DNA of 64,000 nt from a virus (IMGVR_UViG_3300028048_001599); one strand, 5' to 3'; positions 30,811-46,928 are shown, counted from the first letter of the stretch. Numbers and translations are program-made. The notes: generated by a model from the sequence alone, not told the origin.

Positions 30811-30839
30811 TTGACAAATTTGGAAATAGGTGTTATAAT
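30811..30839 (+). promoter_or_regulatory. sigmaA promoter P1 of the RNA operon
   Basis: TTGACA-17-TATAAT, TG extension, A-tract UP-like element. Confidence 0.85.
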
Positions 30840-30915
30840 CGTTAATGTAATCGAAAAGGTCAGTACAATTATAGGACAGAGTAAGAATATAAATCAAAAA
30901 TCTTGGTTGTATTGT

Positions 30916-30944
30916 TTGATATATTCTGAAAAAGTTGTTATAAT
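30916..30944 (+). promoter_or_regulatory. sigmaA promoter P2
   Basis: TTGATA-17-TATAAT, TG extension. Confidence 0.7.
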
Positions 30945-31015
30945 CAGGTACGGGGTAAATATCGGTAGAATTTGTCAATCATGAAAAAATCTTGAAAATT
31001 TTTTTGAAAAAAGTG

Positions 31016-31044
31016 TTGACAAAGATGGAAAAATGTGTTATAAT
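31016..31044 (+). promoter_or_regulatory. sigmaA promoter P3
   Basis: TTGACA-17-TATAAT, TG extension, same AAAAAAGTG upstream as P1. Confidence 0.85.
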
Positions 31045-31317
31045 GAAAAAGCGGTAAAAAAGTAGGATGTTTCATGTAAATGGCTTCTTTTTTGGCTTTC
31101 ATTATTCTGTCCTCCGATTTACCAGAGTGATAGAATGTCTGGCATACATCGATTATTCCGCAAATACTCGATGGCAGTTGCTACTGAGCTGCATTTAGTA
31201 CCTTAGACCGCATTGGGTACTACCTCCTTTCTATCGGTAGCTGAACTCGAAAAGATGAGGGTGTCAACCTTATGGTTGACGAGTGTGATGTGGTGGAGGT
31301 TTCACACAGCTAAATAT

Positions 31318-31362
31318 GGTAGTAATGGTACTTTATTACAGGTTCGACTCCTGTAGCTACCT
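31318..31362 (+). ncRNA. armless tRNA-like minihelix 1
   Basis: GGTAGT/GCTACC stem + bulged A + ACAGG-TTCGACT-CCTGT T-arm, no D or anticodon arm. Confidence 0.6.
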
Positions 31363-31522
31363 GTGAACCGCTTGCAATTATGAGAAGTATGTTTTCAAAT
31401 TAGCAAGTAAAACCCAACCGTTGGCACATTGGGGGAGAACACCGGGGGTGTTTGTTGATTACTTGTGACCGGGAACAGTGGGGGAGGCAAGGTTACATGC
31501 TGCGGTTACTTGCCATTTATAT

Positions 31523-31593
31523 GATGGGAATGGATGGTTCTTGCAGACTTTGTTAGCTTTTGGAACTGGTCGGTTCGACTCCGACACCTGTCA
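31523..31593 (+). ncRNA. tRNA-like element 2 (minihelix with an inserted hairpin)
   Basis: GATGGG/CCTGTC stem + bulged A + GTCGG-TTCGACT-CCGAC T-arm. Confidence 0.55.
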
Positions 31594-31597
31594 ATGT

Positions 31598-31639
31598 GGT
31601 GGTGTACAAGTATGGTCGGTGCAACTCCGATAGCCACCT
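31598..31639 (+). ncRNA. armless tRNA-like minihelix 3
   Basis: GGTGGT/GCCACC stem + bulged A + GTCGG-TGCAACT-CCGAT T-arm. Confidence 0.55.
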
Positions 31640-32302
31640 AAAGATTATATATTGTTGATTTAGTAAGTCGCTGCTTTCTGATGTCTATGTGGGGGCTTGC
31701 GGAAGTGCAACAATATGGTAGTGTTCTAAGACACGAGATACGAACACTTTTAACCTGCTTTATAGCTGGTAACATTGGTATAATACCGTGACTTGTCAAG
31801 GATTACCTAAAACAAGGAGATGTTACCGATAGTGAGTGAGTACTTGCTATCCTCAGACTAAAAAATAAAAACTGAGGTATGGTCGGAAACGGCAAACAAA
31901 GCGGTGCTATGAGGTTATACCTACTCTAAGGCACTGTAAGGAAGGGGTTTCAAAACCACCGTTGGAAACATAAATAAACATTGAATAATACAGTATGGCA
32001 AGGTTGGGTCAGTTGTATTAGTGGGCGGTCACTTGAACATAAGGAGTGACAACAGACATAGCGAGGTGGCAGCTATGTTATTATAATTAAATTGCCGGTT
32101 CGTTGAGGTGTTAAGACTGAATGATTTTGCTATGGATTACCTAAAGCAAAAGAGAGGAACCTATGTTGCTCAGAGGTGTACTGAGGATTTGAGAAAGGCT
32201 GTAAACAGTAAATAAACACAAAATCGGAGTTATGCAAGGAGTTAAAATGCCTTTATGATTGTGGTGCATAACAGTAAAGTACAAGGTGGGGTACTTAAAT
32301 AT
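31640..32302 (+). ncRNA. large structured ncRNA, GOLLD-like
   Basis: ~660-nt ORF-free multi-hairpin segment next to tRNAs; motifs GTGGGCGGTCAC...GTGAC, GCGAGGTGGCAGC, GAATGATTTTGCT...AGCAAAAG resemble my recollection of GOLLD; not searched. Confidence 0.45.
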
Positions 32303-32346
32303 GGTAACACTGGTGTCTTGTATGAGTTCGATTCTCATAGTTATCT
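32303..32346 (+). ncRNA. armless tRNA-like minihelix 4
   Basis: GGTAAC/GTTATC stem + bulged A + ATGAG-TTCGATT-CTCAT T-arm. Confidence 0.6.
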
Positions 32347-32525
32347 GCTGGCACTCTGGAAATAGACAGGGCAAGTTTAGTTACTTAGTTCTTGTAAAAA
32401 CTGAGTCTGAATACTTATTATACTTAACGAATGTAGTAATACAGGGGGTAAGTTGCGGTAGCTGCTTGGCAACAGTGGAAACAATGTTCTAAAAGATGCC
32501 ACCTAATAATAATACTGGAAACAGT

Positions 32526-32565
32526 TGACAAAGCGGAAAGACGCTTGGCACTCGGACAGACGGGC
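32526..32565 (+). repeat. tandem GAAAGA-loop hairpin motif, copy 1
   Basis: TGACA-AAGCG-GAAAGA-CGCTT-GGCA-CTCG-GACAGA-CGGG. Confidence 0.7.
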
Positions 32566-32616
32566 TATCTTCGGATAGGTACTTTGAAAGTTAAATAAGT
32601 ACATACTCAAAAATAT

Positions 32617-32691
32617 GGCACCATAGTGGAAGTGGTTTATCACGCCACCCTTTCAAGGTGGAGATTCCGAGTTCGAACCTCGGTGGTGTCA
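32617..32691 (+). tRNA. trnE: tRNA-Glu(TTC)
   Basis: canonical cloverleaf, anticodon loop CTTTCAA; no encoded CCA. Confidence 0.92.
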
Positions 32692-32887
32692 CTAAAGATC
32701 ATTTACTTAGCTGGGAACATGATCTATATATTTAATCAGCTCGGAACTGTGAGAACTGTGCGTTGGACGTCTTACATATCTTACTGAGTAGGTGGTTAGA
32801 GGTAAGATACTTTTAAAAAATAGTTTAAAAAACTATTTATAAAATAAAGTTATTGTGTTATAATATATACATAATAAAAATAAACAT

Positions 32888-33222
32888 GGGGGTATGGTGG
32901 AATTGGCAGACACAAGGGACTTGCTGTTGACTGCTTGGATAAAACCAAGTATACCATAGGAAACTATGGGGAGTGCCTTTGGGGAAACCCTTAGAGTAGA
33001 AGTCGCCTAAACGGGGAATGTGTCAACAAAATCCCGTACCAATGCGAAGTGTAAGACTTCAGAAGTGTGTAGAGGCTATACAGCGACTACCTAAACCACA
33101 ATGTGGCATGGTAAAGAGTGAGTCCAGACTACAACGATATCAGTCGGCTATGGTGACATAGAGTAGTAAGAAAATCCCTCGGAGTAACATCCATACGGGT
33201 TCGAGTCCCGTTACCCCCACCA
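32888..33222 (+). tRNA. trnL: tRNA-Leu(TAA), intron-containing (exons 32888-32922 and 33171-33222)
   Basis: joined exons give AGGGA-CTTAAAA-TCCCT anticodon arm, long variable arm, T-arm, A73 + CCA. Confidence 0.88.
32923..33170 (+). mobile_element. group I intron (248 nt, ORF-less) in the tRNA-Leu anticodon
   Basis: follows U34, ends in omega-G; P3 AGTCGC/GCGACT, P4 CGGG/CCCG, R-like GTAGAGGCTA, S-like GAGTCC, P9 ACTAC/GTAGT. Confidence 0.85.
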
Positions 33223-33259: not shown

Positions 33260-33784
33260 ATGGAATATCAAAGAGTACCTATTAAGACAGAGGGTTTTGA
33301 AGGATGTACTGTTGATACAGATGGTATATTATATAAGAATGATGGTACAAAATTTACATATTATGAAAACCATAAAGGCTATTATATGATATATCAAAGT
33401 GGATATATTCGTAAATCAGTACATAGTATTGTTGCTGAAACATTTATACATAATGATAGACCTGGTATAGCTACTATGGTTAATCATAAAGATGGGAATA
33501 AGCACAACAATTCTGTCGATAATCTTGAATGGGTTACATCATCTGAGAATGTAAGGCATGCAGTAGATGTACTTGGGGTAAATTATTCAAGTAATAACGG
33601 TAATGCAAGGGCAATAAAAGGAATAAATAAGTATGATTGTAGTGTTATATACTTTCCTACTATTGCAGATGCAGGCAGACATTTTAGACCCGATAATCCA
33701 GTTAGAGGAAAGGTTTCTATTTGGCGTGTACTTAAAGGTATGAGAAAATCTGTTTATGACTATTATTGGTATTATGACGATTGA
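33260..33784 (+). CDS. free-standing HNH homing endonuclease (HNH_3 + NUMOD1-like)
   Basis: HSIVAETF...VNHKDGNKHNNSVDNLEWVTSSEN..H; C-terminal F.TIADAGR. Confidence 0.9.
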   Translation: MEYQRVPIKTEGFEGCTVDTDGILYKNDGTKFTYYENHKGYYMIYQSGYIRKSVHSIVAETFIHNDRPGIATMVNHKDGNKHNNSVDNLEWVTSSENVRHAVDVLGVNYSSNNGNARAIKGINKYDCSVIYFPTIADAGRHFRPDNPVRGKVSIWRVLKGMRKSVYDYYWYYDD

Positions 33785-33801
33785 ATAAATCGTTATATAT
33801 A

Positions 33802-34075
33802 TGACTTGTCAATGTCATTAAACTTGATAGGTGATAACTACCTGAAGGGTTCTATTTAGTACATTTCAGCTTGTGTACTACCATTGCGTAGAGTGCTAGT
33901 CGACGGCTTTAGAGCTAACTTTACAATGGGAACAGTGCATATATATTGTTGGAATTGCTAAGTATGACTTAGTGTGAAACCTCGTGCGGTTGTGCTGTAA
34001 CACATGGGCAGAGAGAAACTGCGGAGCGTAGAAAAAGCAAAAATGCCTTTACAGAGGTAGAAGTAGCTTTAGAGA
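33802..34075 (+). ncRNA. unknown structured RNA starting with an H-type pseudoknot, copy 1
   Basis: TGAC-TTGTCAAT-GTCA-TTAAAC-TTGATAG; related to 35480; 3' boundary approximate. Confidence 0.4.
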
Positions 34076-34114
34076 CATCGTTGTGAGGTTACCGATGTCA
34101 ATTTATTAAAAAAT

Positions 34115-34182
34115 TACGGTAGCACATATAACAGTTACTTCAGAAAATATTGAACTATAAACTGTTGTAGATTTTCTCCGTA
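34115..34182 (+). ncRNA. Y-RNA-like motif, copy 1 (short loop)
   Basis: outer stem, TAGCACA, 9-bp stem, TACTTCA ... GATTTTCT. Confidence 0.6.
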
Positions 34183-34278
34183 TACTTTCATGGATTCTCA
34201 GTTAGAAGTGAGGTATTAAAATTAACTGTGACTTATCTGGTTAGTACCGACTTGATAAGTATATAAAGGTACAAATTG

Positions 34279-34501
34279 AATGTGGCAGTGCAGAGGACGG
34301 TTACTTCAGAAGATTTTATGATTGGTGCTCTTTTATGGGTACATGTGATCTACTACTTTAGTGTAGACGTTCTGTAACACGTTATTGCAGGAGCGTCCAT
34401 GGCTCTAATATTGGGGGTTTCGCTTCAGCCTTAGAAGCACTTAAATTTAATAGAGCTGGACTACGGTCTGGTTCATTACTGTTCTCGATTTTATCCACAT
34501 T
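34279..34501 (+). ncRNA. Y-RNA-like motif, copy 2 (~170-nt insert)
   Basis: AATGTGG/CCACATT, CAGTGCA, GAGGACGGT/ACTGTTCTC, TACTTCA, GATTTTAT. Confidence 0.6.
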
Positions 34502-34510: not shown

Positions 34511-34666
34511 ATGGCGACAGCGTAGGAAACAGTTACTTCAAAAATTATAAATTTTTTACATTTAAACAAAGCAGCTATGTCTTATAAGACTATGTTGTAA
34601 GATTAACGGTGGATATATCTGCCGTACATATTAAGATTTTTTACTGTTTTCGATTTTCTTCGCTAT
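34511..34666 (+). ncRNA. Y-RNA-like motif, copy 3 (~100-nt insert)
   Basis: ATGGCGA/TCGCTAT, CAGCGTA, GGAAACAGT/ACTGTTTTC, TACTTCA, GATTTTCT. Confidence 0.6.
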
Positions 34667-34673
34667 AACATTT

Positions 34674-34767
34674 GTTGGTATGACGGAAATATAGACGTGG
34701 GTTCTCGCGTGAGCCTGATGCAGAAAGCTAATGCATCGTACAGGTGTAAATCCTGTTGCCAGCACCA
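34674..34767 (+). ncRNA. aberrant class-II tRNA-like RNA A
   Basis: 7-bp acceptor + A73 + CCA, D loop lacks GG, 6-nt anticodon loop, long variable arm, T loop TGTAAAT. Confidence 0.7.
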
Positions 34768-35190: not shown

Positions 35191-35281
35191 GTCACTGTGG
35201 CGAAATTATAGACGCTATACCTTGGGTAGAGATACTTGAAATTGAAGTATCGTACAGGTGTAAATCCTGTCAGTGACACCA
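35191..35281 (+). ncRNA. aberrant class-II tRNA-like RNA B
   Basis: GTCACTG/CAGTGAC + A73 + CCA, D loop lacks GG, truncated anticodon hairpin TACC-TTG-GGTA, 7-bp variable arm, T loop TGTAAAT. Confidence 0.7.
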
Positions 35282-35403: not shown

Positions 35404-35476
35404 TCCCTCATAGCTCAGCAGGTAGAGCAAACGGCTGTTAACCGTTGGGTCGTAGGTTCGAACCCTACTGGGGGAG
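35404..35476 (+). tRNA. trnN: tRNA-Asn(GTT)
   Basis: canonical cloverleaf, loop CTGTTAA. Confidence 0.93.
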
Positions 35477-35479
35477 CGC

Positions 35480-35730
35480 CGACTTATCAATGTCGTAAAA
35501 CTTGAGAAGTGTAGCATACTTGAGAGCTTATGGAAGTGTAAAAGTTTGGGGGTATCTATAGGTACCACATGGAAGTAAGTAAAATGTGAATCCGAAGCAG
35601 TCGCCCCTCAGCAAATAGGGGTACATAGAAGGATTGCAAAGACTGAAAGTTAGTGCTGTAATGAGTAAGTCAAGGCACCGTGGGGATGTCGGTGTCAAAT
35701 CCTTGAATAGCATAACTGCAATCGTTCCCT
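35480..35730 (+). ncRNA. unknown structured RNA starting with an H-type pseudoknot, copy 2
   Basis: CGAC-TTATCAAT-GTCG-TAAAAC-TTGAGAA immediately after tRNA-Asn; 3' boundary approximate. Confidence 0.4.
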
Positions 35731-35833
35731 TATATACTTATATAATTGTTGCAGACTGATTTATGTACAATATTCAAAAGGATACGCTTACAGGGAAGTT
35801 TATCCATGCACTATGTAGGATATAGTGCGACAT

Positions 35834-35911
35834 GATTCGGTAGTTCAGCTGGTCGTTAGAACACCGTCTATACCAAGGCGGAGGTCAGGGGTTCAAATCC
35901 TCTCCGAATCA
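35834..35911 (+). tRNA. tRNA-Asp-like body with 8-nt anticodon loop (TATACCAA), identity undetermined
   Basis: arms closely match tRNA-Asp at 42831; loop expanded and altered. Confidence 0.6.
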
Positions 35912-36222
35912 CTACTTATAATCTTTGATAATGGGGATTATAAATATTATACAGACTATCTTGAGTGCTGTTACATTATCTATGATTTATAAGGATGCGA
36001 CATGGAATAGCAAGTTGAATTGGTGGTGTGGAGCTGCAAAGCGTAGAAGCATCAGTGATTAAGGATTTATCCGACTTGTTCCTTATAGATTGAAATTAAG
36101 CTAAGGATGTCAGGGTAACTCTCCATATACATTTGTATATAGGGCAAGATAGTTGGTAACAACTTGAGTATGATATGATGAGAGATAGAGTTACAGATAG
36201 GTAGTGGGAAAGCCTATTATAT

Positions 36223-36293
36223 GCAAGTATGGTGTAGGGGTAACATATCAGCTTCCCAAGCTGAGGTCACGGGTTCAAATCCCGCTACTTGCT
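36223..36293 (+). tRNA. trnG: tRNA-Gly(CCC)
   Basis: cloverleaf, loop TTCCCAA, U73. Confidence 0.88.
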
Positions 36294-36409
36294 CTTATAA
36301 TGTATTGATTTTTTAACAACTCATTTGTTTTCCAATATATTACATTTATGTGTCAGATATACCTCAAAAGGTCGTCCATACCCTTAGCCATATATTTGAC
36401 ACATTATAT

Positions 36410-36479
36410 ACTGTACTAGCTTAAAGGTAAAGCAGTCGATTACAAACGATGGATATTAGTTCAAATCTAATGTACAGTA
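36410..36479 (+). tRNA. aberrant tRNA (4-bp anticodon stem, 8-nt loop ATTACAAA), identity undetermined
   Basis: perfect acceptor ACTGTAC/GTACAGT, D arm, T arm ATTAG-TTCAAAT-CTAAT. Confidence 0.55.
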
Positions 36480-36659
36480 CTTTTGGGTAAGGTGCTTTTG
36501 AAGTGAATATTGCATTTGTGGCTATTTGTCAGTATTGCTAATAGGGGTGGCACCAGTACAGGATAGAAAGAGGTTGATTCCTGTTTACATTGAGGATAGG
36601 TATTTATGAACCTTGAACCGGGTTTTCTCATTATCGGCTTTAACATTTTGCGGACTTGG

Positions 36660-37465: not shown

Positions 37466-37486
37466 ACTGTACCTTGATAATTTAAT

Positions 37487-37925: not shown

Positions 37926-38004
37926 ATAATGTATATGTATGTAGGTACTATGAAGATAGTTAAAACAGTGTATTAAATTATCAAGATTACAAATAATAAA
38001 ATAT

Positions 38005-39130: not shown

Positions 39131-41332
39131 ATGCGGATTATTAAGCGAGATTCTTCAGAAGAGATATTTGACGTTAATAAGATTGTGAACGCTATTTCAA
39201 AGGCTAATTCTGCCACAGATGAAAATAATATAGCACCTGAGAAAATCAGGGATATAGCTGAGTATGTAGAATATAAATGTTCTAAATTAAGTCGAGCTGT
39301 ATCTGTTGAAGAAATTCAGGACATGGTAGAGAATCAGATTATGGCTGTTGGTGCATTTGAAGTAGCAAGAAATTATGTACGGTATCGTTATAAGAGGTCA
39401 CTTGAAAGACAGACTTCTGTTACTGACGCAAAAATTATCAGTCTTATTGAATGTAACAATGAAGAAGCAAAACAGGAGAACAGTAATAAAAACCCAGCTA
39501 TAAATAGTGTTCAGCGAGACTACATGGCAGGTGAAGTAAGCCGTGATTTAACAAAGCGTAAGTTACTCCCACCTGAAATTGTAGAAGCTCACGAAAGGGG
39601 TATTATACATTTCCATGATACTGATTACTATGCTCAGCACATGCACAATTGTGACCTTGTAAATCTTGAGGATATGTTACAAAATGGGACAGTTATTAGT
39701 GGTACAATGATAGAAAAGCCACACAGTTTTTCTACAGCTTGTAACATTGCAACTCAGATAATAGCACAGGTGGCATCTAATCAATACGGCGGTCAGAGTA
39801 TAAGTCTTACCCATCTTGCTCCTTTTGTTGACATTTCAAGAAAAAAGATTAAAAATGCAATTATCGAGGAACTTGAAGTGACTGGAACAGAGATGTCCGA
39901 GGAAAATATAAATAAGATTACTGAAATGCGTTTAAGAAAAGAGATTGAAAAAGGTATTCAGACTATACAGTATCAGGTTGTAACCTTACTCACAACTAAT
40001 GGTCAAGCACCTTTCTTATCTGTATATATGTACCTTAACGAGGCTCGTAATGAACAGGAAAAAGCAGATCTTGCCGTGATTATTGAAGAAACGTTAAAAC
40101 AAAGAATATTAGGGGTAAAAAACGAGAAGGGTGTAAGTATTACACCAGCTTTTCCGAAGTTAATATATGTTCTTGAAGAAGATAATATTCACGAAGGTGA
40201 TAAATATTGGGATTTGACAGTGCTTGCTGCAAAATGCACTGCCAAGAGAATGGTTCCTGATTACATATCAGAAAAGGTGATGCTTGAGTTAAAAGGTGAT
40301 GTATACACATGTATGGGTTGTCGTAGTTTCTTAACACCTGATGATTTTACAGATAAGGGTGTCGGAAACATTGCGAGAGCTAAAAATTATATACCTGGTA
40401 AACATAGATATTATGGTCGTTTCAATCAAGGGGTAGTTACTGTAAATCTTGTGGATATTGGTTTATCTGCAAATAAAGATATGAACAAATTCTGGGAAAT
40501 ATTCGATACAAGAATGGCACTTTGTCACAAAGCTTTAAGATGTAGACATGAGCGTCTAAAGGGTACACTGTCAGATGCAGCTCCTATTTTGTGGCAATAT
40601 GGGGCACTTGCACGTCTTGATAAGGGTGAAAAGATTGACGAATTACTGTATAATGGTTATTCAACAATATCATTGGGGTATGCTGGACTTTGGGAGTGTG
40701 TATACAGTCTTATAGGCAAGAAGTTGACTGAGCCAGAGGGTAAAGAACTCGGACTTGAGATTATGCGTAAACTTAATGAATACTGTGCTAAATGGCGGTC
40801 TGAGGAAAACATAGCTTATAGTTTATACGGTACACCTCTTGAGTCTACCACATATAAGTTTGCAAGATGTTTACAGCAACGTTTTGGTGTCATAAAGGGG
40901 GTAACAGATAAGAACTACATTACTAATTCTTATCATGTACATGTAACTGAACCTATTAACGCATTTGATAAACTTAAGATTGAATCAGAATTTCAGGCTC
41001 TTTCACCAGGTGGTGCTATAAGTTATGTAGAAGTTCCAAACATGACAAATAATATACCTGCTGTGTTAGCAATAATTCAATTTATATACGATAACATCAT
41101 GTATGCAGAACTAAACACAAAGAGTGATTATTGTCAATGTTGTGGGTATGATGGTGAAATTGAGATTGTAAAAGATGATGACAAACTCATTTGGAAATGT
41201 CCTAACTGTGGTAATACTGACCAGGACAAGTTAAATGTTGCAAGACGTACTTGTGGCTATATTGGGACTCAGTTTTGGAATCAGGGGCGTACTCAGGAGA
41301 TAAAAGAACGTGTTATTCATCTTTGTTGTTAA
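39131..41332 (+). CDS. nrdD: anaerobic (class III) ribonucleoside-triphosphate reductase
   Basis: N-terminal ATP cone (IIKRD...FD..KI..AI), HFHDTDY, CMGCRS, FNQGVV, C-terminal CxxC...CxxC and RRTCGYIG glycyl-radical loop. Confidence 0.96.
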   Translation: MRIIKRDSSEEIFDVNKIVNAISKANSATDENNIAPEKIRDIAEYVEYKCSKLSRAVSVEEIQDMVENQIMAVGAFEVARNYVRYRYKRSLERQTSVTDAKIISLIECNNEEAKQENSNKNPAINSVQRDYMAGEVSRDLTKRKLLPPEIVEAHERGIIHFHDTDYYAQHMHNCDLVNLEDMLQNGTVISGTMIEKPHSFSTACNIATQIIAQVASNQYGGQSISLTHLAPFVDISRKKIKNAIIEELEVTGTEMSEENINKITEMRLRKEIEKGIQTIQYQVVTLLTTNGQAPFLSVYMYLNEARNEQEKADLAVIIEETLKQRILGVKNEKGVSITPAFPKLIYVLEEDNIHEGDKYWDLTVLAAKCTAKRMVPDYISEKVMLELKGDVYTCMGCRSFLTPDDFTDKGVGNIARAKNYIPGKHRYYGRFNQGVVTVNLVDIGLSANKDMNKFWEIFDTRMALCHKALRCRHERLKGTLSDAAPILWQYGALARLDKGEKIDELLYNGYSTISLGYAGLWECVYSLIGKKLTEPEGKELGLEIMRKLNEYCAKWRSEENIAYSLYGTPLESTTYKFARCLQQRFGVIKGVTDKNYITNSYHVHVTEPINAFDKLKIESEFQALSPGGAISYVEVPNMTNNIPAVLAIIQFIYDNIMYAELNTKSDYCQCCGYDGEIEIVKDDDKLIWKCPNCGNTDQDKLNVARRTCGYIGTQFWNQGRTQEIKERVIHLCC

Positions 41333-41487
41333 TCAGGTTAAATAATTAGCACATTTTGTTATAACTATTTAGGTTATTAACTTGTAAAGGTGTGTTGATT
41401 ATGTTAAACTGGTTTATAGTCATGGTATTATTCATGTCCGAGAGAAAGCACAGGGGTAGCTAAGTTAATGAGGGCACAGGGTGTCCC

Positions 41488-41555
41488 GCAGGTATACAGG
41501 TTCGAGTCCTGTAAAGACAAGTTCGATTCTTGTCAGTGTATGGTACGAAACCTGC
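41488..41555 (+). ncRNA. element with two tandem T-loop hairpins inside a closing stem
   Basis: GCAGGT/ACCTGC enclosing TACAGG-TTCGAGT-CCTGTA and GACAAG-TTCGATT-CTTGTC. Confidence 0.5.
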
Positions 41556-41560
41556 CTTGA

Positions 41561-41629
41561 TGCAGTATGCGTAGGTCGCACGACATCTTCATACGGTGTC
41601 TTATGCAGGTTCGATTCCTGCTACTGCAA
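41561..41629 (+). tRNA. atypical tRNA with CAT anticodon
   Basis: TGCAGTA/TACTGCA acceptor, mini D arm with no 8-9 linker, 6-bp anticodon stem, loop TTCATAC, canonical T arm. Confidence 0.55.
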
Positions 41630-41636: not shown

Positions 41637-42015
41637 GGGGATGTAACGGTTTCGACAGGGTACGTGAGGTATGTTAAGCAAGCAGGCGGTCAGTCGCCTT
41701 ATATACTGAAACTTCAAAATAAACGCTACTAGAAATAGCAGACCTGTTGCACTTGCTGCCTGATTGGGCAGTAGCAACAGCTTGAGGCATGACCTCAAGT
41801 GCATCTTATGATAGTACCACGGATTGTAAGATGTATGGACAAGTGGTGAACGAAGTAGGGGTATGTCAAGACCACGACTTTGTATATTGACTACTGTGGT
41901 ATAAAACCTGTTTGTCGGTGTTATACTTTGGGAAATTTTAATAGATAAACTAAGCTTGTAGAAAAACATATTGAAGGTATTTTGGACAGGGGTTCGATTC
42001 CCCTCATCTCCACCA
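41637..42015 (+). ncRNA. ssrA: tmRNA; predicted tag (A)ATRNSRPVALAA* at 41725-41763
   Basis: GGGGATGTAACGGTTTCGAC 5' end, G3-U70, GGTTCGATTCC T arm, ACCA end; tag ends ALAA. Confidence 0.95.
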
Positions 42016-42748: not shown

Positions 42749-42777
42749 TTGACAAAGTTAGAAATTGATGTTATAAT
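42749..42777 (+). promoter_or_regulatory. consensus sigmaA promoter for the second tRNA/ro60 block
   Basis: TTGACA-17-TATAAT with TG. Confidence 0.85.
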
Positions 42778-42830: not shown

Positions 42831-42904
42831 GGTTCAATAGTTCAGTTGGTTAGAACGCCGCCCTGTCACGGCGGAGGTCAGGGGTTCGACTCCCCTTTGA
42901 ATCG
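42831..42904 (+). tRNA. trnD: tRNA-Asp(GTC)
   Basis: canonical cloverleaf, loop CTGTCAC, G73. Confidence 0.94.
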
Positions 42905-42907
42905 CTC

Positions 42908-42967
42908 ATGTAGGTAGGACAAACGATGTCTGTACGACATATTGGAATAAGTACCTTGTACCTACAT
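42908..42967 (+). ncRNA. small three-stem motif, copy 1
   Basis: AAACG-loop hairpin + GAYATATTGGAATAA-loop hairpin in a closing stem; second copy at 46863. Confidence 0.5.
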
Positions 42968-43025
42968 TTATATAGTAATCACAATCAAGTAGGCTCACGC
43001 CTCTTGATTAGTGTATTACATTTGT

Positions 43026-43112
43026 GGAGGAGTAAGCATAGTTGGTACTGCAGCGGATTGCTAATCCGTTACACTTGTTAAAGTGTCATAGGTTCAAGTC
43101 CTATCTTCTCCG
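43026..43112 (+). tRNA. trnS: tRNA-Ser(GCT)
   Basis: class II cloverleaf, loop TTGCTAA, G73. Confidence 0.92.
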
Positions 43113-43185
43113 TTGTTCATATAACACTCCTAATTTTGTGGTACATTGAGAAATTGGTGTACCACTTTTGAAAGGGTCGATAATT

Positions 43186-43523: not shown

Positions 43524-43598
43524 GGATTGTTAGCTCATTTGGTCGAGAGCATTCGGCTCATAACCGAACGGTGGTAGGTTCGAATCCTACACAATCCA
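43524..43598 (+). tRNA. tRNA-CAT, probably Ile2 (lysidine) or elongator Met
   Basis: canonical cloverleaf, loop CTCATAA, G1G2A3 acceptor like Firmicutes Ile2. Confidence 0.88.
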
Positions 43599-43697
43599 TT
43601 AGGGAAAGAGTAATGTCAGGTATTCACGACTTACGAGAGTCTGGGTACGGAATTAGGGTCGCATTACTTAGGCAGGTATGGGGTGAACCTGCTATTA

Positions 43698-43774
43698 TCG
43701 ACATTGTAGACAGAAGTTACTTCACAGCAAATGAAATGGTTTTGAATCCTATTACTTCTGTTGATTTTATTCGA
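43698..43774 (+). ncRNA. Y-RNA-like motif, copy 4, ~80 nt upstream of ro60
   Basis: CATTGTA, GACAGAAGT/ACTTCTGTT, TACTTCA, GATTTTAT; loop has a degenerate T-loop GGTTTTGAATCC. Confidence 0.65.
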
Positions 43775-43853
43775 CTTTATATTAAAATATGACATTGATT
43801 GTCAGTAATATAAAGCCAATCAGACATTGTTTTATTCTGAAAGGGGTAGTAAA

Positions 43854-45311
43854 ATGAGTAAATTTAACAGCACAACTATCGGTAAGTCAAAGACTGTCAA
43901 TAAAGAGGGTCACGTTGCGTACAAGATGGGCGAAAAAGAGAAGTTGGTTTCAATGGTACTAACTTCATTTTTTAACGAATCTAAGTTTTACGGGGACAAC
44001 TCTGAGGAACTTGTAGAGACACTTATAAACGTCATTAAGGAAGACCCGAAATTTGTTTCCAATCTTGCAGTATTTGCACGTAGGGAGTTTAACATGAGGT
44101 CTGTATCTCAGGTACTTACTGCATATCTTGCCAATATTGTAGAGGGAAAACCTTACGTAAAAGAAACGATAAGGGGTATTGTTGGTCGTGGTGATGACAT
44201 AACGGAGTTGCTGTCTTTTTATTTGAGCACATTCGGCAAGCCTATACCTAACTCGTTGCGTAAAGGTATTAATCGTGTTTTCACGTCTTTTAATGAATAC
44301 ACTCTTGCTAAGTACAAGGGTTCAAAGAAGGGCGTTAAAATGAAGGATGTTATTAACATCTGTCACCCATCTCCTAAAAACGAGGAGCAGTCACAGATGT
44401 GGAAACGTTGTCTTGAAGACAGCCTGCAAGTACCGTACACGTGGGAAGTAGAAATAGCAAAGAGGGGTAATACCAAAGAGGTTTGGGAGGAACTTATAGA
44501 CTCAGACAAAGTTGGGTATATGGCACTTCTTCGTAATCTTCGTAACATAGCAAATGCAGAGGTATCAAACCTCGATAAGGTTCTTGATATTATCTCTGAC
44601 CCTGAACGTATCCGTAAGTCGAAACAGTTACCGTTCCGTTATCTGTCAGCTTACTTAGCCTTGAGGGGTAATCCTTGTATTAATGCTAATGTACCTTATT
44701 CTAAGATTTTTTCAGCACTTGAAAAGGCTGTCAATATATCTGCTGAAAATATGCCTAAGTATAAAGGTAGAACAGTTATTGCCATTGATGTTTCGGGTTC
44801 AATGTCGAGGGGAGGGGTAGGTAAACAGTCTGATGTAACTCCTATTCAAATTGCTTCAGTACTTGGACTGCTTGCAAACAAGATGTGTGAAGATAGTATA
44901 GTATACCTATTTAATGACAGCATTAAGACTTTGGCAGTTTCAGAGTACACACCTGTTCTTGAAACGGCAGTAACCATGAATGCAGGTGGGTTTACATATA
45001 TGGAGTTACCCATTATCGAGTTGTGTGAGAGAAACATTAAGGCTGACCGTATTATTTACATTTCTGATAATCAGTCTAACAGTGTGAGCGCACTGGCGGT
45101 ACAGGGTTGGCTTAATGAGTACCGTAAGATTAGTCCTGACTGTTGGCTTCACGCTATTGATATAGAAGGGTACGGTACACAGCAATTTTGTGGTAAGAAT
45201 ACCAATATTATTGCAGGGTGGTCTGAGAAGGTGCTTGACTTTATACCAATGGCAGAACAAGGGGTATCTTCTCTTATAGACGTTATCGAACAATATGTTT
45301 GGTATGACTAA
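43854..45311 (+). CDS. rsr: Ro60/Rsr RNA-binding protein (TROVE + vWA)
   Basis: VNKEGHVAY, FARREFNMRS, LAKYK, TWE, GYMALLRNLRN, QLPFRYLSAY; MIDAS DVSGSM; ATG 43854. Confidence 0.93.
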   Translation: MSKFNSTTIGKSKTVNKEGHVAYKMGEKEKLVSMVLTSFFNESKFYGDNSEELVETLINVIKEDPKFVSNLAVFARREFNMRSVSQVLTAYLANIVEGKPYVKETIRGIVGRGDDITELLSFYLSTFGKPIPNSLRKGINRVFTSFNEYTLAKYKGSKKGVKMKDVINICHPSPKNEEQSQMWKRCLEDSLQVPYTWEVEIAKRGNTKEVWEELIDSDKVGYMALLRNLRNIANAEVSNLDKVLDIISDPERIRKSKQLPFRYLSAYLALRGNPCINANVPYSKIFSALEKAVNISAENMPKYKGRTVIAIDVSGSMSRGGVGKQSDVTPIQIASVLGLLANKMCEDSIVYLFNDSIKTLAVSEYTPVLETAVTMNAGGFTYMELPIIELCERNIKADRIIYISDNQSNSVSALAVQGWLNEYRKISPDCWLHAIDIEGYGTQQFCGKNTNIIAGWSEKVLDFIPMAEQGVSSLIDVIEQYVWYD

Positions 45312-45348: not shown

Positions 45349-45422
45349 TGAGGTATGGCCTAATGGTAGGGCATCAGACTTTGACTCTGTGTGTATGGGT
45401 TCGACTCCCGTTACCTCAGCCA
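45349..45422 (+). tRNA. trnQ: tRNA-Gln(TTG)
   Basis: cloverleaf, loop CTTTGAC, U1-A72, G73 + CCA. Confidence 0.93.
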
Positions 45423-45489
45423 CGTGTTAGTAATTATGTCAAGCGAGGACTGAGTGATATATTAGAATAAGCTCTTACTAACAAAATAT

Positions 45490-45571
45490 GGGGGTATGCT
45501 GGAATTGGCAGACAGGGAAGACTCAAAATCTTTTGCAGCAATGCGTGTGGGTTCAAGTCCCACTACCCCCA
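45490..45571 (+). tRNA. trnL: tRNA-Leu(CAA)
   Basis: class II cloverleaf, loop CTCAAAA. Confidence 0.93.
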
Positions 45572-45663
45572 CTACAAATTGGATAGATGCACCATTTTGA
45601 TTATGCTATATAAGTAATATTGTTGGAACACATAAAATAGACAATGAGGGACTGGGTGATTAA

Positions 45664-45828
45664 ATGCATTATTATGTATACGGTAGACATTACCAGACAG
45701 GTAGGGAAGAATATATAGGTACTTATGATACTATGTTGGAGGCTATACAGAAAATTGCTTTTTGTTATCATATAGATAGTACTTCAGGTTTTGGTCTGCA
45801 ATATTACTATTTTATGAAACAGCATTAA
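45664..45828 (+). CDS. small hypothetical protein (54 aa)
   Basis: GGGTGA RBS, MHYYVYGRHY... Confidence 0.45.
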   Translation: MHYYVYGRHYQTGREEYIGTYDTMLEAIQKIAFCYHIDSTSGFGLQYYYFMKQH

Positions 45829-46021
45829 GTATATGGGGTATATACCTTTGTACACATTTATTATATTATAAAGAAGTGATTATATGTATATTCTGTATGA
45901 AATCGAATGTATAAAAGGAATACCGTATATAACTTGTAAGGGGTACGCCTCTTGTAAATTTATAGCATCAAATTGGGTATCTGAAAAGCCGGATATTCGT
46001 ATTTATGTAAATTATTAAAAT

Positions 46022-46097
46022 CGGGGTATAGCGCAGTTGGTAGCGCGCCTGCTTTGGGAGCAGGATGTCGGGGGTTCGAGTCCCTCTACTCCGACCA
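46022..46097 (+). tRNA. trnP: tRNA-Pro(TGG)
   Basis: canonical cloverleaf, loop TTTGGGA, CCA. Confidence 0.95.
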
Positions 46098-46236
46098 TAC
46101 AAACTAAGACACCGAGCAAGGCTTAGGAAGTTATCAGTACCGATGTAGTGTCTATCAAGGTATTGGCTCAGGCATACACGAGGTAAAGTGTTCGTACAAA
46201 CGGTATGTTGAATAAGCAGTATGTTAAGAATTACCG

Positions 46237-46275
46237 TGACAAATTGGAGAGTCAGTTGACAGCCGGAAAGACGGC
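46237..46275 (+). repeat. tandem GAAAGA-loop hairpin motif, copy 3
   Basis: TGACA-AATTG-GAGAGT-CAGTT-GACA-GCCG-GAAAGA-CGGC. Confidence 0.7.
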
Positions 46276-46285
46276 ATTTATATAT

Positions 46286-46362
46286 TGCAGAGTAGTAGCA
46301 GTGGTTAGCTCGTCAGGTTCATATCCTAAAGGTCAGTGGTTCGAGTCCATTCTCTGCAACCA
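46286..46362 (+). tRNA. trnM: tRNA-Met(CAT), initiator-like
   Basis: AGCTCGTCAGG-TTCATAT-CCTAA-AGGTC resembles fMet; AACCA end; one anticodon-stem mismatch. Confidence 0.8.
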
Positions 46363-46482
46363 TATAAATTAGGTGCAACTTTTACATAGTTGTTAAATGT
46401 CCAATGAGGTGAAGTACTGAGTTAAACATCGTTAAGCATGGAGTAGCAGGGATACTTAAAGAGGAAACAGCCTATAATACGT

Positions 46483-46555
46483 GTGTCCGTAGCTCAGTGG
46501 GTAGAGTAAAGGACTGAAAATCCTTGTGTGAGTGGTTCAATTCCATTCAGCAGCA
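46483..46555 (+). pseudogene. degenerate tRNA-Phe(GAA)
   Basis: intact D, anticodon (CTGAAAA) and T arms; three acceptor-stem mismatches. Confidence 0.6.
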
Positions 46556-46561
46556 TTAAAA

Positions 46562-46638
46562 GTAATAGTAGCTCAAAGTGGTAGAGCAACGTACACTTGA
46601 ACTGGCGTGTGTTGCAGGTTCGAGTCCTACCTATTACT
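46562..46638 (+). tRNA. aberrant tRNA with extended/bulged anticodon arm (TGA-like loop)
   Basis: perfect acceptor GTAATAG/CTATTAC, D and T arms; anticodon arm ACGT-a-CA-CTTGAAC-TG-GCGT; short variable loop. Confidence 0.5.
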
Positions 46639-46645
46639 TTTATAT

Positions 46646-46717
46646 GCACCATAGATTATACGGTGTGGTAGTTGTCTGCAAAGTAACTTTTAGTAGGTTC
46701 GACTTCCACATGGTGCT
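46646..46717 (+). pseudogene. degenerate tRNA-Cys(GCA)
   Basis: GCACCAT/ATGGTGC acceptor, U73, loop CTGCAAA; weak D and T stems. Confidence 0.55.
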
Positions 46718-46777
46718 TTAATTTAATATTATTTTTTTTTGAGTGCGACTGGATTTTTCCATTTTTTTCATCCTTTT

Positions 46778-46860
46778 GACTGAGTACATCACTGTATTGT
46801 GATGTATTTAGTCTAAAGTATATAAATACTATATACTTTAGACTGAGTACAAAAACTCAG
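46778..46860. repeat. cluster of three overlapping inverted repeats
   Basis: 15-bp stem 46778-46813, perfect 15-bp IR 46810-46844, 6-bp IR 46843-46860; direct repeat GACTGAGTACA. Confidence 0.75.
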
Positions 46861-46862
46861 TA

Positions 46863-46917
46863 GTGGGAATTACGTCAAACGTGGACTGTGCGATATATTG
46901 GAATAAGCACTTCCCAC
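46863..46917 (+). ncRNA. small three-stem motif, copy 2
   Basis: same loops as 42908 with covarying stems (GTAC/GTAC vs GTGC/GCAC). Confidence 0.5.
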
Positions 46918-46928
46918 ATTAATTAGGT

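What the first reader, a model, noticed from the sequence alone, without database searches (positions are those of the whole stretch)
30811..46920. A ~16-kb RNA factory: Ro60, Y-like RNAs, tmRNA, tRNAs, tRNA decoys and ornate RNAs in one co-oriented zone
Between the triple promoter and 46.9 kb most of the sequence outside nrdD and ro60 is structured RNA: 13 canonical tRNAs, about 8 aberrant or degenerate tRNAs, 4 minihelices, tmRNA, 4 Y-like RNAs, GOLLD-like and 2 ROOL-like RNAs, and at least 3 repeated unnamed motifs. Established: Ro60/Y RNA handles damaged or misfolded RNA (with PNPase in Deinococcus; linked to RtcB tRNA repair in Salmonella), tmRNA rescues stalled ribosomes, and phage tRNAs counter anticodon nucleases. 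Inference: this is an integrated translation-protection / RNA-quality-control system against host tRNA- and mRNA-targeting defences, using decoy tRNAs and Ro60 RNPs.
Basis: partly seen in the sequence, partly recalled or inferred. Interest (0 to 1): 0.8.

Follow-up and report, generated by a model that had tools for sequence, protein, structure and literature searches.

The report
Phage tRNA, tmRNA, ROOL, Ro60 island
A giant rumen phage or plasmid packs about 22 tRNA-like genes, a tmRNA, two ROOL RNAs, a Ro60 protein with four partner Y-type RNAs and several unnamed folded RNAs into one 16-kb same-strand block; this is a rich example of a known kind of phage RNA island, and nothing shows it is a decoy-based defence machine.

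Summary
The inventory is real. Standard tools confirm 15 tRNAs, tmRNA, two tandem ROOL RNAs, nrdD and a Ro60 (TROVE plus vWA) protein. All are on the + strand, behind three near-perfect tandem promoters.

I added five things:
- A tRNA-Leu(UAA) split by a 248-nt intron, which a relative lacks.
- Four Y-type RNAs of a family with strong covariation, found upstream of Ro60 in about 40 phage loci and in Bacillus phage G.
- Two CCA-ending tRNA mimics that directly follow Y RNAs.
- A two-T-loop element conserved with compensatory changes.
- A new two-hairpin motif ("D7") that sits in or next to tRNA arrays, often just after a tRNA, in unrelated metagenome contigs.

"GOLLD-like" has no support.

The "decoy" reading is not supported. 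Several aberrant tRNAs are decaying or chimeric paralogues of normal tRNAs kept in a relative, and I found no RNA-repair genes among the proteins I scanned.

Each named part is already known to sit in phage tRNA islands. Phage G has tRNAs, tmRNA, TROVE and Y RNAs together, and this scan has met similar islands in at least 14 other genomes.

Verdict: a new member of a known kind that carries several undescribed RNA motifs. About 5 kb of conserved non-coding sequence, including a roughly 660-nt RNA, remains unclassified.

The parts
30811..31044 (+). Three tandem sigma-70-type promoters about 100 bp apart (30811-30839, 30916-30944, 31016-31044), placed just after the terminator at 30606-30634
   Evidence: 12/12, 11/12 and 12/12 hexamer matches, each with a TG extension. 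repeat family D5.
31236..31362 (+). tRNA-like element with a 7-bp acceptor stem, a T arm and extra inserted hairpins
   Evidence: Rfam tRNA at 24.4 bits, below cut-off. The fold shows an acceptor stem plus T arm, z -2.7. A diverged homologue in L162 has a compensated T stem.
31523..32346 (+). About 660 nt of unclassified RNA (31640-32300), bracketed by acceptor-plus-T-arm minihelices whose T arms lie at 31569, 31615 and 32322
   Evidence: T-arm scan. Minihelix folds. The large-RNA fold has z -2.45. Few of the 43 differences from L161 across 31045-32616 fall between about 31200 and 32100 (3 of the 28 at paired positions). The region is absent from L162. No Rfam family matches.
32350..32616 (+). 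Conserved unclassified block that ends in a hairpin with a GAAAGA loop (32526-32548)
   Evidence: 92% identical to L162, whose proteins are only about 70% identical at the DNA level. Motif counts.
32617..32692 (+). tRNA-Glu(UUC)
   Evidence: 60.6 bits.
32888..33222 (+). tRNA-Leu(UAA) interrupted by a 248-nt intron (32923-33170) between anticodon positions 34 and 35
   Evidence: ARAGORN with introns allowed. L162 4589-4674 carries the same gene without the insert, with junctions at 32922/33171. Ten compensatory pairs between the window and L161 copies. No Rfam group I hit.
33260..33784 (+). Free-standing HNH endonuclease gene next to the intron-bearing tRNA
   Evidence: Pfam HNH_3. The whole 33223-33800 segment is missing from L161, which is otherwise 95-97% identical.
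33801..34112 (+). Unclassified conserved RNA block
   Evidence: 86% identical to L162, with a long stretch (about 60 nt) identical in all three genomes. Mostly one-sided, pair-keeping changes.
34113..34184 (+). Y-type RNA 1
   Evidence: Model R1, 59.6 bits. This copy was in the seed alignment. Fold z -3.1.
34279..34501 (+). Y-type RNA 2, with about 170 nt of cargo
   Evidence: 15 of 15 closing pairs in my script. The cargo is too long for model R1 to find it.
34511..34666 (+). Y-type RNA 3
   Evidence: Model R1, 53.4 bits; not in the seed alignment.
34674..34767 (+). CCA-ending class II tRNA mimic 1. T loop TGTAAAT, no GG in the D loop. Starts 8 nt after Y RNA 3.
   Evidence: ARAGORN at a relaxed threshold. 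Cloverleaf fold, z -2.3. Paralogue and orthologue alignment.
35191..35281 (+). CCA-ending class II tRNA mimic 2
   Evidence: z -3.4. 100% identical in L162, where it starts 5 nt after a Y RNA.
35404..35477 (+). tRNA-Asn(GUU)
35478..35833 (+). Unclassified conserved RNA block
   Evidence: 84% identical to L162. 91 predicted pairs: 4 compensatory, 15 one-sided, 8 broken.
35834..35912 (+). tRNA-Asp paralogue with an 8-nt anticodon loop
   Evidence: Rfam 49.8 bits. The L162 orthologue is a canonical tRNA-Asp.
36223..36294 (+). tRNA-Gly(CCC)
36410..36480 (+). Odd tRNA with a conserved TTACAAA anticodon loop closed by an A/C mismatch
   Evidence: 53.4 bits. The loop is conserved while the stems covary, in L162 and in a paralogue at L161:6372.
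36768..36840 (+). tRNA-Thr(UGU), flanked by a 45-nt repeat (36660-36704 and 36853-36897)
   Evidence: repeat family D15.
36930..37978 (+). Two tandem ROOL RNAs (36930-37458 and 37477-37978)
   Evidence: Rfam RF03087 at 173.1 and 150.4 bits against a cut-off of 99.1; full model length in both.
38005..38089 (+). tRNA-Leu(UAG)
39119..41332 (+). Anaerobic ribonucleotide reductase nrdD
   Evidence: Pfam NRDD, E 6e-193.
41463..41556 (+). Two-T-loop element: a closing stem around two tandem T-arm hairpins
   Evidence: Fold z -2.5. Four further copies in L161 and L162 with compensatory changes, each just upstream of a tRNA.
41561..41629 (+). Short tRNA(CAU) with a reduced D arm, 7 nt upstream of the tmRNA
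   Evidence: 36 bits. Identical in L162.
41637..42015 (+). tmRNA with a 12-residue tag ending ALAA
   Evidence: ARAGORN. Rfam 158 bits.
42749..42777 (+). Fourth perfect promoter, at the head of the tRNA-Asp to Ro60 unit
   Evidence: The promoter block is repeated in tandem in relatives L168 and L170.
42831..43113 (+). tRNA-Asp(GUC), D7 motif copy 1 (42908-42967) and tRNA-Ser(GCU)
43524..43598 (+). tRNA-Met(CAU). The order tRNA-Met, Y RNA, Ro60 is kept across the element family.
43695..43777 (+). Y-type RNA 4, directly upstream of Ro60
   Evidence: Model R1, 58.5 bits (this copy was in the seed alignment).
43854..45311 (+). Ro60 orthologue (TROVE ring plus vWA domain with a D-x-S-x-S motif)
   Evidence: Pfam. 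4876 homologues. Invariant D312, S314 and S316.
45349..45572 (+). tRNA-Gln(UUG), D7 motif copy 2 (45423-45482) and tRNA-Leu(CAA)
46022..46362 (+). tRNA-Pro(UGG), an unclassified 188-nt block, and a CCA-ending tRNA(CAU)
   Evidence: 95% identical to L162.
46483..46717 (+). Three degenerate tRNAs: a Lys/Phe chimera with a broken acceptor stem (46483), a tRNA with an 8-nt anticodon loop (46561), and a weak tRNA-Cys (46646)
46858..46916 (+). D7 motif copy 3, the last RNA element before the next protein genes

Best explanation
The zone is a phage-type tRNA and non-coding-RNA island, made of a few long, same-strand transcription units.

Shown:
- What the island contains.
- All of it lies on one strand.
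- Consensus promoters sit at 30811-31044 and 42749.
- The Y-type RNAs, the D7 motif and the two-T-loop element show covariation.
- The tRNA-Leu intron is an insertion.

Inferred:
1. The promoters make long precursor transcripts.
2. Host RNase P and RNase Z cut at the true tRNAs and at the acceptor-plus-T-arm minihelices. This releases the RNAs lying between them: the 660-nt RNA, the ROOL pair, the Y RNAs, the tmRNA and the D7 units. It would be a 'tRNA punctuation' scheme. A CCA-ending tRNA mimic placed 5-8 nt after a Y RNA would set that Y RNA's 3' end, much as mascRNA does for MALAT1.
3. The products keep translation and RNA turnover going while the AT-rich element replicates. The tRNAs top up or replace host tRNAs. 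The tmRNA frees stalled ribosomes. Ro60 with its Y RNAs recruits a host exoribonuclease to structured RNA. What ROOL and the unnamed RNAs do is unknown.

The parts sit together because they share expression and processing and are exchanged as cassettes, not because they form one machine.
For: - Content.
- Strand bias and promoters.
- Boundaries:
  - The ROOL pair lies between tRNA-Thr and tRNA-Leu.
  - The tmRNA starts 7 nt after a tRNA(CAU).
  - Y4 follows tRNA-Met, an order kept in five lineages.
  - The large RNA lies between T-arm minihelices.
  - A Y RNA is followed within 8 nt by a CCA-ending mimic in the window, L161 and L162.
  - D7 copies 1 and 2, and some other contigs' copies, follow a tRNA within about 20 nt.
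- Y RNA family:
  - 73 of 111 5' motifs have at least 14 of 15 closing pairs, against 24 of 555 mismatched controls.
  - Covariation score 0.69 against 0.24 in shuffles, 0 of 500 as high.
  - 107 model hits, all in Ro60 loci, 106 on the Ro60 strand, none in 43 control loci.
- Precedent:
  - Bacillus phage G carries TROVE, four tandem hits of the same model, a tRNA array and a tmRNA within 9 kb.
  - ROOL is 'often near tRNA islands' (10.1101/2024.12.08.627333).
  - Phage Ro60, Yrl RNA and host PNPase form a complex (PMC12135203).
- Conservation: RNA blocks are 84-95% identical to L162, while the Ro60, PC4 and DUF4314 genes are 69-78% identical.
Against: - There are no expression or end-mapping data. 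Transcription units, processing sites and RNA stability are all inferred.
- The short minihelices do not fold better than shuffled sequence (z -0.1 to -0.6). Their identity rests on the T-loop sequence.
- nrdD and several small ORFs interrupt the zone, so it is not one operon.
- The island's tRNAs read only about 38% of the element's codons and include rare ones (GGG, CUA). Simple matching to codon usage is therefore not evident.
- High identity of RNA blocks between lineages could reflect recent exchange rather than selection.
Confidence: 0.6

Rival explanations
1. The zone is one integrated counter-defence system. Aberrant tRNAs and minihelices act as decoys that soak up host anticodon nucleases and tRNA-targeting toxins. 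Spare tRNAs, the tmRNA and Ro60 particles repair or clear the damage.
For: - Some odd tRNAs are under selection, not decaying. The 36410 type keeps its unusual anticodon loop while its stems covary in three genomes and in a paralogue. The two CCA-ending mimics are conserved (100% in L162 for mimic 2).
- Altered anticodon loops are a reported way for phage tRNAs to escape anticodon nucleases (from my own knowledge, not checked here).
- A comparative review of jumbo phages places TROVE among RNA-repair systems (PMC7824862).
Against: - Several 'decoys' are decaying or chimeric paralogues of tRNAs that are normal in L162: 35834, 46483, 46286, 46561 and 46646.
- No RNA ligase, RtcB or polynucleotide kinase appeared among the window proteins scanned.
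- The content of the zone varies between relatives, and ROOL is absent from five other Ro60 phage genomes. The parts are therefore not an obligate set.
- No host defence gene or target is known.
Confidence: 0.15
2. Accretion zone. This is a permissive, highly transcribed stretch where RNA genes, mobile elements (an intron, an HNH gene) and stray genes (nrdD) pile up by duplication and recombination. Much of the unnamed sequence would be spacer or dead copies with no function of its own.
For: - Gain or loss of the HNH gene, of extra tRNAs and of the 1.25-kb region between genomes that are 95-97% identical, or across lineages.
- Chimeric and degenerate tRNAs.
- A duplicated unit of Y RNA 3' end plus mimic.
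- The unnamed blocks and the CCA-ending mimic have no relatives outside this element family in IMG/VR.
Against: - The unnamed blocks are better conserved than the neighbouring protein genes (84-95% against 69-78%).
- Substitutions in them mostly keep the predicted pairs.
- D7, the Y RNAs and the two-T-loop element show clear covariation.
Confidence: 0.25

Closest known systems
Bacillus phage G (JN638751): region around TROVE gp540, the tRNA array and tmRNA gp553
   Same: - A TROVE/Ro60 gene sits inside a same-strand tRNA array, with a tmRNA about 3 kb downstream.
- Four tandem RNAs upstream of the TROVE gene match my Y RNA model.
- Y-like RNAs of phage G are already cited in the literature (PMC12135203, citing PMC4201824).
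   Different: - No ROOL in phage G.
- I examined only this 9-kb region of phage G and did not look there for the other features: the intron-bearing tRNA-Leu, the CCA-ending mimics, D7 or the 660-nt RNA.
- Its Ro60 is only about 28% identical to the window's.
YrlA/YrlB Y RNAs with Rsr (Ro60) of bacteria and mycobacteriophages (Rfam RF02553; PMC4201824)
   Same: - Encoded next to Ro60 on the same strand.
- The 5' and 3' ends form a long stem with a conserved internal loop.
- In relatives, about half of the copies carry a nested T arm, D arm and closed acceptor stem, and these get significant sub-threshold YrlA hits.
   Different: - The window's four copies have no tRNA-like domain and no RF02553 hit.
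- The conserved words (GTTACTTC on the 5' side, GATTTYAT on the 3' side) differ from the published GNCGAA motif.
- There are up to 8-10 copies per locus.
- Here the tRNA-like module sits after the Y RNA, not inside it.
Thermus phage phiLo Ro60 with Yrl1 and Yrl2 (PMC12135203)
   Same: A phage Ro60 with Y-like RNAs just upstream. That system binds host PNPase, which gives the most likely mode of action here.
   Different: The host phylum and the sequence motifs are different. No tRNA, tmRNA or ROOL context is described there. Binding was not tested for this protein.
ROOL RNA (Rfam RF03087), which forms RNA-only nanocages (10.1101/2024.12.08.627333)
   Same: Two full-length matches above the curated cut-off, inside a phage tRNA island, which is the typical setting.
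   Different: There are two diverged copies in tandem. Function is unknown in every case.
Group I intron of cyanobacterial and plastid tRNA-Leu(UAA)
   Same: Same tRNA and same insertion point (between anticodon positions 34 and 35). Similar size (248 nt). U before the 5' splice site and G as the last intron base. An intron-less allele exists in a relative.
   Different: It lies on a mobile element whose nearest Ro60 relatives are named Ruminococcus. No Rfam group I hit. An HNH gene lies beside the tRNA rather than inside the intron, and a near-identical genome lacks it.
MALAT1 and mascRNA, and mitochondrial tRNA punctuation (processing analogy only)
   Same: A tRNA-like element directly downstream of another RNA would let RNase P define that RNA's 3' end.
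   Different: Those are eukaryotic systems. Here the idea rests on adjacency alone.

Membership tests
ROOL RNA (RF03087) | Score at or above Rfam's gathering cut-off over the full covariance model | tested here: met
   173.1 and 150.4 bits against 99.1; model positions 1-574 in both copies.
tmRNA (RF00023) | tRNA-like domain plus an internal tag reading frame ending in a stop codon | tested here: met
   ARAGORN reports a 12-residue tag ending ALAA. Rfam 158 bits against 47.
Ro60 / Rsr | TROVE HEAT-repeat ring followed by a vWA domain with a metal-site motif | tested here: met
   PF05731 at E 8.5e-35 and PF25045 at E 1.2e-8. D312, S314 and S316 are invariant among 25 homologues.
Ro60 / Rsr | Binds Y RNA and single-stranded ends of misfolded RNA | not testable with these tools
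   Needs pull-down or gel-shift experiments.
Bacterial Y RNA (YrlA, RF02553) | Encoded within a few kb of Ro60, on the same strand | tested here: met
   Y4 ends 77 nt before the Ro60 start codon. Across relatives, 106 of 107 model hits lie on the Ro60 strand, mostly within 1.5 kb upstream. Y1-Y3 lie 9 kb upstream; L162 has a similar distal cluster.
Bacterial Y RNA (YrlA, RF02553) | The 5' and 3' ends pair into a long stem with a conserved internal loop | tested here: met
   15 pairs, 83.6% paired, 13 pairs with changes on both sides, covariation 0.69 against 0.24 in shuffles.
Bacterial Y RNA (YrlA, RF02553) | A nested tRNA-like domain (T arm, D arm, closed acceptor stem) | tested here: not met
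   None of the window's four copies has one. 51 of 93 copies in relatives have a T arm, and 28 of those also have a D arm.
Bacterial Y RNA (YrlA, RF02553) | Match to the Rfam model | tested here: not met
   No hit in the zone at E<=1. Relatives that carry a tRNA domain score 32-41 bits against a cut-off of 69, with E between 1e-5 and 4e-3.
GOLLD RNA | Match to the Rfam model | tested here: not met
   No GOLLD row at E<=1 over 30000-47500 or at E<=10 over 31040-33260.
Group I intron | An insertion that interrupts an otherwise intact gene, with an intron-less allele elsewhere | tested here: met
   ARAGORN predicts a 248-nt intron. L162 has the uninterrupted tRNA, and its junctions fall exactly at 32922/33171.
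Group I intron | Conserved catalytic core (P3-P8, guanosine site) | tested here: inconclusive
   No Rfam hit. There is a U before the 5' splice site and a terminal G. Ten compensatory pairs between two alleles that are 83% identical. I did not map the core helices reliably.
Group I intron | GTP-dependent self-splicing | not testable with these tools
   Needs an in vitro splicing assay.
tRNA (decoding) | Cloverleaf with a 7-nt anticodon loop and intact stems | tested here: met
   Met by about 13 genes. Not met by 31236, 34674, 35191, 35834, 36410, 41561, 46483, 46561 and 46646.

The most novel reading that the evidence does not exclude
The island may hold at least three undescribed functional RNA classes, tied together by tRNA-guided processing:
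1. The D7 two-hairpin motif, placed in or next to tRNA arrays, often just after a tRNA 3' end, in unrelated phage-like contigs.
2. A Y RNA followed by a CCA-ending tRNA mimic whose D loop and T loop are both altered. This would be a split version of YrlA, matured by RNase P in the way mascRNA matures MALAT1.
3. A roughly 660-nt ornate RNA cut out at T-arm minihelices.
In addition, hairpins with a GAAAGA loop may act as boxB-like antitermination sites that let polymerase read through this long structured operon.
Probability: 0.3. Interest if true: 0.75.

Novelty: new member of a known kind. Interest (0 to 1): 0.5.

Why it matters
Phage tRNA islands are usually annotated as tRNAs plus empty spacers. 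This one shows how much folded RNA the spacers can hold, and it gives concrete, testable units:
- A Y RNA family that reaches a cultured phage (Bacillus phage G), so Ro60 biology in phage infection can be studied at the bench.
- A new motif (D7) linked to tRNA arrays.
- A two-T-loop leader element.
- Tandem units of a Y RNA followed by a tRNA mimic, which suggest processing guided by RNase P.

It also tempers the popular 'decoy tRNA' idea: comparison with a relative shows that several odd tRNAs here are simply decaying copies.

Tried and rejected
- **GOLLD:** no Rfam support, even with lax filters on 2.2 kb. A genome search aimed at GOLLD used the wrong accession (RF01998 is a group II intron domain) and says nothing about GOLLD.
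- **Close relatives in curated collections:** only the tRNAs match in phage and plasmid records.
- **Single-protein Ro60 scans:** IMG/VR and JGI metagenomes returned nothing.
- **No whole genome is held for this window**.
- **Pattern scans for unnamed blocks:**
  - The 33.9-kb core had no hit.
  - The 35.7-kb core had 5 hits, all by chance, with no similarity beyond the 18-mer.
  - A strict D7 pattern found nothing in IMG/VR.
  - The mimic's T arm found nothing in species genomes, and 120 chance hits in IMG/VR, none with a CCA end or the D-loop motif.
- **Intron similarity search in phage records:** only a weak 72-nt hit to an uncultured 735-kb phage.
- **Hidden genes under recoded stop codons:** no long ORFs appear in the tested stretch 30800-39100.
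- **Compensatory-change test on the large RNA against L161:** too few substitutions to decide (2 compensatory, 11 kept, 12 broken).
- **My first Y RNA pairing score:** it used the wrong register and did not separate real pairs from controls. This was corrected.
- **Codon usage:** no clear match between the island's tRNAs and the element's preferred codons.

Full report
**What is in the sequence**

ARAGORN finds 15 tRNA genes and a tmRNA, all on the + strand between 32617 and 46717. Rfam at curated cut-offs adds:
- two tandem full-length ROOL RNAs (36930-37458 and 37477-37978);
- the tmRNA;
- three more tRNA-like hits at 35834, 46483 and 46562.

Pfam identifies nrdD (39119-41332), a Ro60 orthologue with TROVE and Ro60-type vWA domains (43854-45311), an HNH endonuclease (33260-33784) and a PC4-like protein.

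The only 12/12 promoter matches in 18 kb are on the + strand, at 30811, 31016 and 42749. An 11/12 site lies at 30916. A strong terminator at 30606-30634 precedes the first three.

A simple search for T-arm hairpins gives 24 on the + strand of the zone and none on the - strand. Shuffled sequence gives 0.17. Six of these hairpins belong to no called tRNA.

No long ORFs appear in the gene-free blocks of 30800-39100, the part tested, if TAG or TGA is read as sense.

The exception is the "GOLLD-like" RNA. Rfam gives no GOLLD match at E<=1 over the zone or at E<=10 over 31040-33260.

**Setting**

Earlier notes of this scan call the replicon a giant rumen element of about 324 kb, related to pXO16 or a jumbo phage. 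I did not re-test that. The window's other genes are helicases, topoisomerase II subunits and Ig-domain structural proteins.

Relatives come from ENA metagenomes:
- L161/L001 is 95-97% identical and has the same layout.
- L162/L003 is a distant lineage.
- L165, L167-L170 are further lineages whose Ro60 is 61-65% identical.

In L162 the RNA blocks are 84-95% identical to the window, whereas the Ro60, PC4 and DUF4314 genes are 69-78% identical. The order promoter(s), tRNA-Met, Y RNA(s), Ro60, tRNA-Gln is kept in all lineages.

**tRNA-Leu intron**

With introns allowed, ARAGORN calls a tRNA-Leu(UAA) at 32888-33222 with a 248-nt insert after anticodon position 34. L162 carries the same gene uninterrupted, and the alignment breaks exactly at 32922/33171.

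The L161 allele of the intron is only 83% identical, inside flanks that are 97% identical. It differs by ten compensatory pairs.

The site, the size, the preceding U and the terminal G all fit the classic tRNA-Leu(UAA) group I intron. Rfam's model does not match, so I leave the catalytic class open.

The neighbouring HNH gene (33223-33800) is missing from L161. It is a separate mobile insertion.

**Y-type RNAs**

A word shared by four sites in the window (GTTACTTC) also occurs in 1-8 copies upstream of Ro60 in most of 37 IMG/VR Ro60 loci. The units have this architecture:
- 5' stem strand S1;
- a conserved internal loop;
- a variable helix strand S2;
- the conserved word;
- cargo;
- the S2 partner strand;
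- a 3' loop (GATTTYAT);
- the S1 partner strand.

Evidence for the two closing helices:
- Of 111 5' motifs, 73 have at least 14 of 15 closing pairs downstream. Only 24 of 555 controls with mismatched partners do.
- On 22 aligned short copies, the two helices are 83.6% paired. 13 of 15 pairs change on both sides. The covariation score is 0.69 against 0.24 in shuffles (0 of 500 as high), and at most 0.25 when the partners are slid by 1-3 columns.

A covariance model built from that alignment finds three window copies and nothing else in 64 kb at E<0.1. The copy at 34511-34666 was not in the seed. The fourth copy (34279-34501) has 170 nt of cargo and was found only by my script, with 15 of 15 pairs.

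Over 85 loci the model gives 107 hits. All are in Ro60 loci, 106 are on the Ro60 strand, and none is in 43 control viral loci.

About half of the relatives' copies carry a nested T arm, often with a D arm. Three such copies and one site in phage G get significant but sub-threshold hits to Rfam YrlA (32-41 bits). The family is therefore a divergent branch of known bacterial Y RNAs. The window's four copies are of the type without a tRNA domain.

Bacillus phage G has four tandem hits just upstream of its TROVE gene, inside a tRNA array that also holds a tmRNA. Y-like RNAs of phage G are already cited in print.

**tRNA mimics and odd tRNAs**

Two elements of 91-94 nt (34674-34767 and 35191-35281) fold as class II cloverleaves with an encoded CCA end. 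They share an unusual T loop and have a D loop without GG.

Each mimic directly follows a Y RNA or a Y RNA 3' remnant. The gap is 8 nt in the window, 7 nt in L161 and 5 nt in L162. I found no copy outside this element family.

The odd tRNA at 36410 keeps its anticodon loop while its acceptor, D and T stems covary, in L162 and in an L161 paralogue. It is likely functional.

The two-T-loop element at 41463-41556 recurs four more times in L161 and L162 with compensatory changes. Each copy sits just upstream of a tRNA.

Other odd tRNAs look like decay (all):
- 35834 is a diverged copy of a tRNA-Asp that is canonical in L162.
- 46483 is a Lys/Phe chimera with a broken acceptor stem; the L162 orthologue is a normal tRNA-Lys.
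- 46286, 46561 and 46646 carry stem mismatches that L162 lacks.

This mix argues against a designed set of decoys.

**Unnamed motifs**

*D7.* Three window copies, plus one each in L162 and L165, share two small hairpins inside a variable outer stem. One metagenome scan found the core in nine further contigs that share nothing else with the window except tRNAs. In those contigs the motif lies in or next to a tRNA array, often 5-20 nt after a tRNA. On 11 sequences the two hairpins are 94.8% paired. Six of seven pairs change on both sides. Covariation is 0.74 against 0.23 in shuffles (0 of 500 as high). Rfam has no match for it in the window.

*GAAAGA-loop hairpin.* This motif occurs at 32526, 34814, 34834 and, read by eye with a shorter spacer, about 46256. 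Many of the IMG/VR matches could arise by chance, by my own rough estimate. However, 85 of 124 instances extend the stem by three more pairs, where about 5% would be expected. From memory it resembles lambda boxB. That resemblance is a lead, not a test.

*The 660-nt RNA and other blocks.* The stretch 31640-32300 lies between T-arm minihelices and is nearly invariant between the window and L161. L162 lacks it, and it has no other relatives. I cannot classify it. Blocks at 33801-34112 and 35478-35833 were folded against relatives, and there substitutions mostly keep the predicted pairs; with three genomes that is weak evidence. Blocks at 36481-36767 and 46098-46285 are also conserved in L162, but I did not test their structure.

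**Reading**

Every named component is already known to sit in phage tRNA islands:
- ROOL "often near tRNA islands";
- Ro60 with upstream Y-like RNAs in phages, engaging host PNPase;
- TROVE counted among jumbo-phage RNA-repair parts;
- phage G, which combines TROVE, Y RNAs, tRNAs and a tmRNA.

This scan has reported similar islands in at least 14 other genomes.

ROOL is absent from five other Ro60 phage genomes, and the zone's content differs between relatives. The set is modular, not obligate.

The most economical model is a small number of long precursor transcripts, cut at tRNAs and tRNA-like minihelices. The products support translation and RNA turnover. The processing steps and the functions are inferred, not shown.

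I rate the umbrella finding as a new member of a known kind. Its real value lies in the sub-elements: the D7 motif, the tandem of Y RNA and tRNA mimic, the two-T-loop element and the 660-nt RNA.

Noticed in passing
window 42908-42967, 45423-45482, 46858-46916; L162:8732-8804; L165:340-412; L178-L186: The D7 motif has two covarying hairpins: one with a loop AARCGNN and one with a 17-nt conserved loop. It lies in or next to tRNA arrays, often 5-20 nt after a tRNA 3' end, in unrelated metagenome contigs. It has no Rfam family.
   Followed up: yes
window 32526-32548, 34814-34851, about 46256-46275; IMG/VR loci L043-L160: A hairpin with a GAAAGA loop, preceded by TGACA, is widespread in viral contigs. 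85 of 124 instances have three extra stem pairs. It often lies just upstream of tRNA-Leu-like 5' ends that ARAGORN does not call; those may be intron-bearing tRNAs. It looks like lambda boxB (from memory).
   Followed up: partly
window 33223-33800 against L161:4381-4382: The HNH endonuclease gene beside the intron-bearing tRNA-Leu is present in the window and absent from a genome that is 95-97% identical. The intron itself is only 83% identical between the two.
   Followed up: partly
window 32297-32635, 35172-35401, 36217-36846, 46017-46359 against L162: Non-coding RNA blocks are 92-95% identical between lineages whose neighbouring protein genes are 69-78% identical at the DNA level. This reflects either strong constraint or recent cassette exchange.
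   Followed up: partly
window 33801-33830 and 35478-35507; L161:5934-5960; L162:6325-6353: The unnamed RNA blocks begin with the same word of about 30 nt (GACTTGTCAATGTC...AAACTTGA). It may be a processing site or an internal start signal.
   Followed up: no
window 36660-36704 and 36853-36897: A 45-nt repeat (98% identical) flanks tRNA-Thr. On the - strand each copy reads as a terminator-like hairpin followed by a T run.
   Followed up: no
L161:5932-6588 and L161:12436-13124, compared with window 35281-35396 and 41557-41633: The close relative has extra tRNA genes, including a good tRNA-Phe, at two points where the window has none. The window keeps only a broken Phe-like chimera at 46483.
   Followed up: partly
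window 36223-36294; whole window: The island encodes tRNA-Gly(CCC), although GGG is only 12% of Gly codons. Earlier notes report a one-strand GGGGTA word about every 500 bp in this replicon, which would add GGG codons. Separately, AUA makes up 46% of Ile codons and there are three tRNA(CAU) genes, so one of them may be a tRNA-Ile2.
   Followed up: no
L171 (Bacillus phage G) 3025-3529 and 1548-1705: Four tandem hits of the Y RNA model lie upstream of TROVE gp540. A separate site upstream gets both a weak R1 hit and a sub-threshold Rfam YrlA hit. This gives a cultured system for the family.
   Followed up: partly
window 46787-46867: A long, near-perfect inverted repeat just before the last D7 copy draws weak chance hits to microRNA precursor families in Rfam. 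It may be a terminator or a processing hairpin at the end of the zone.
   Followed up: no
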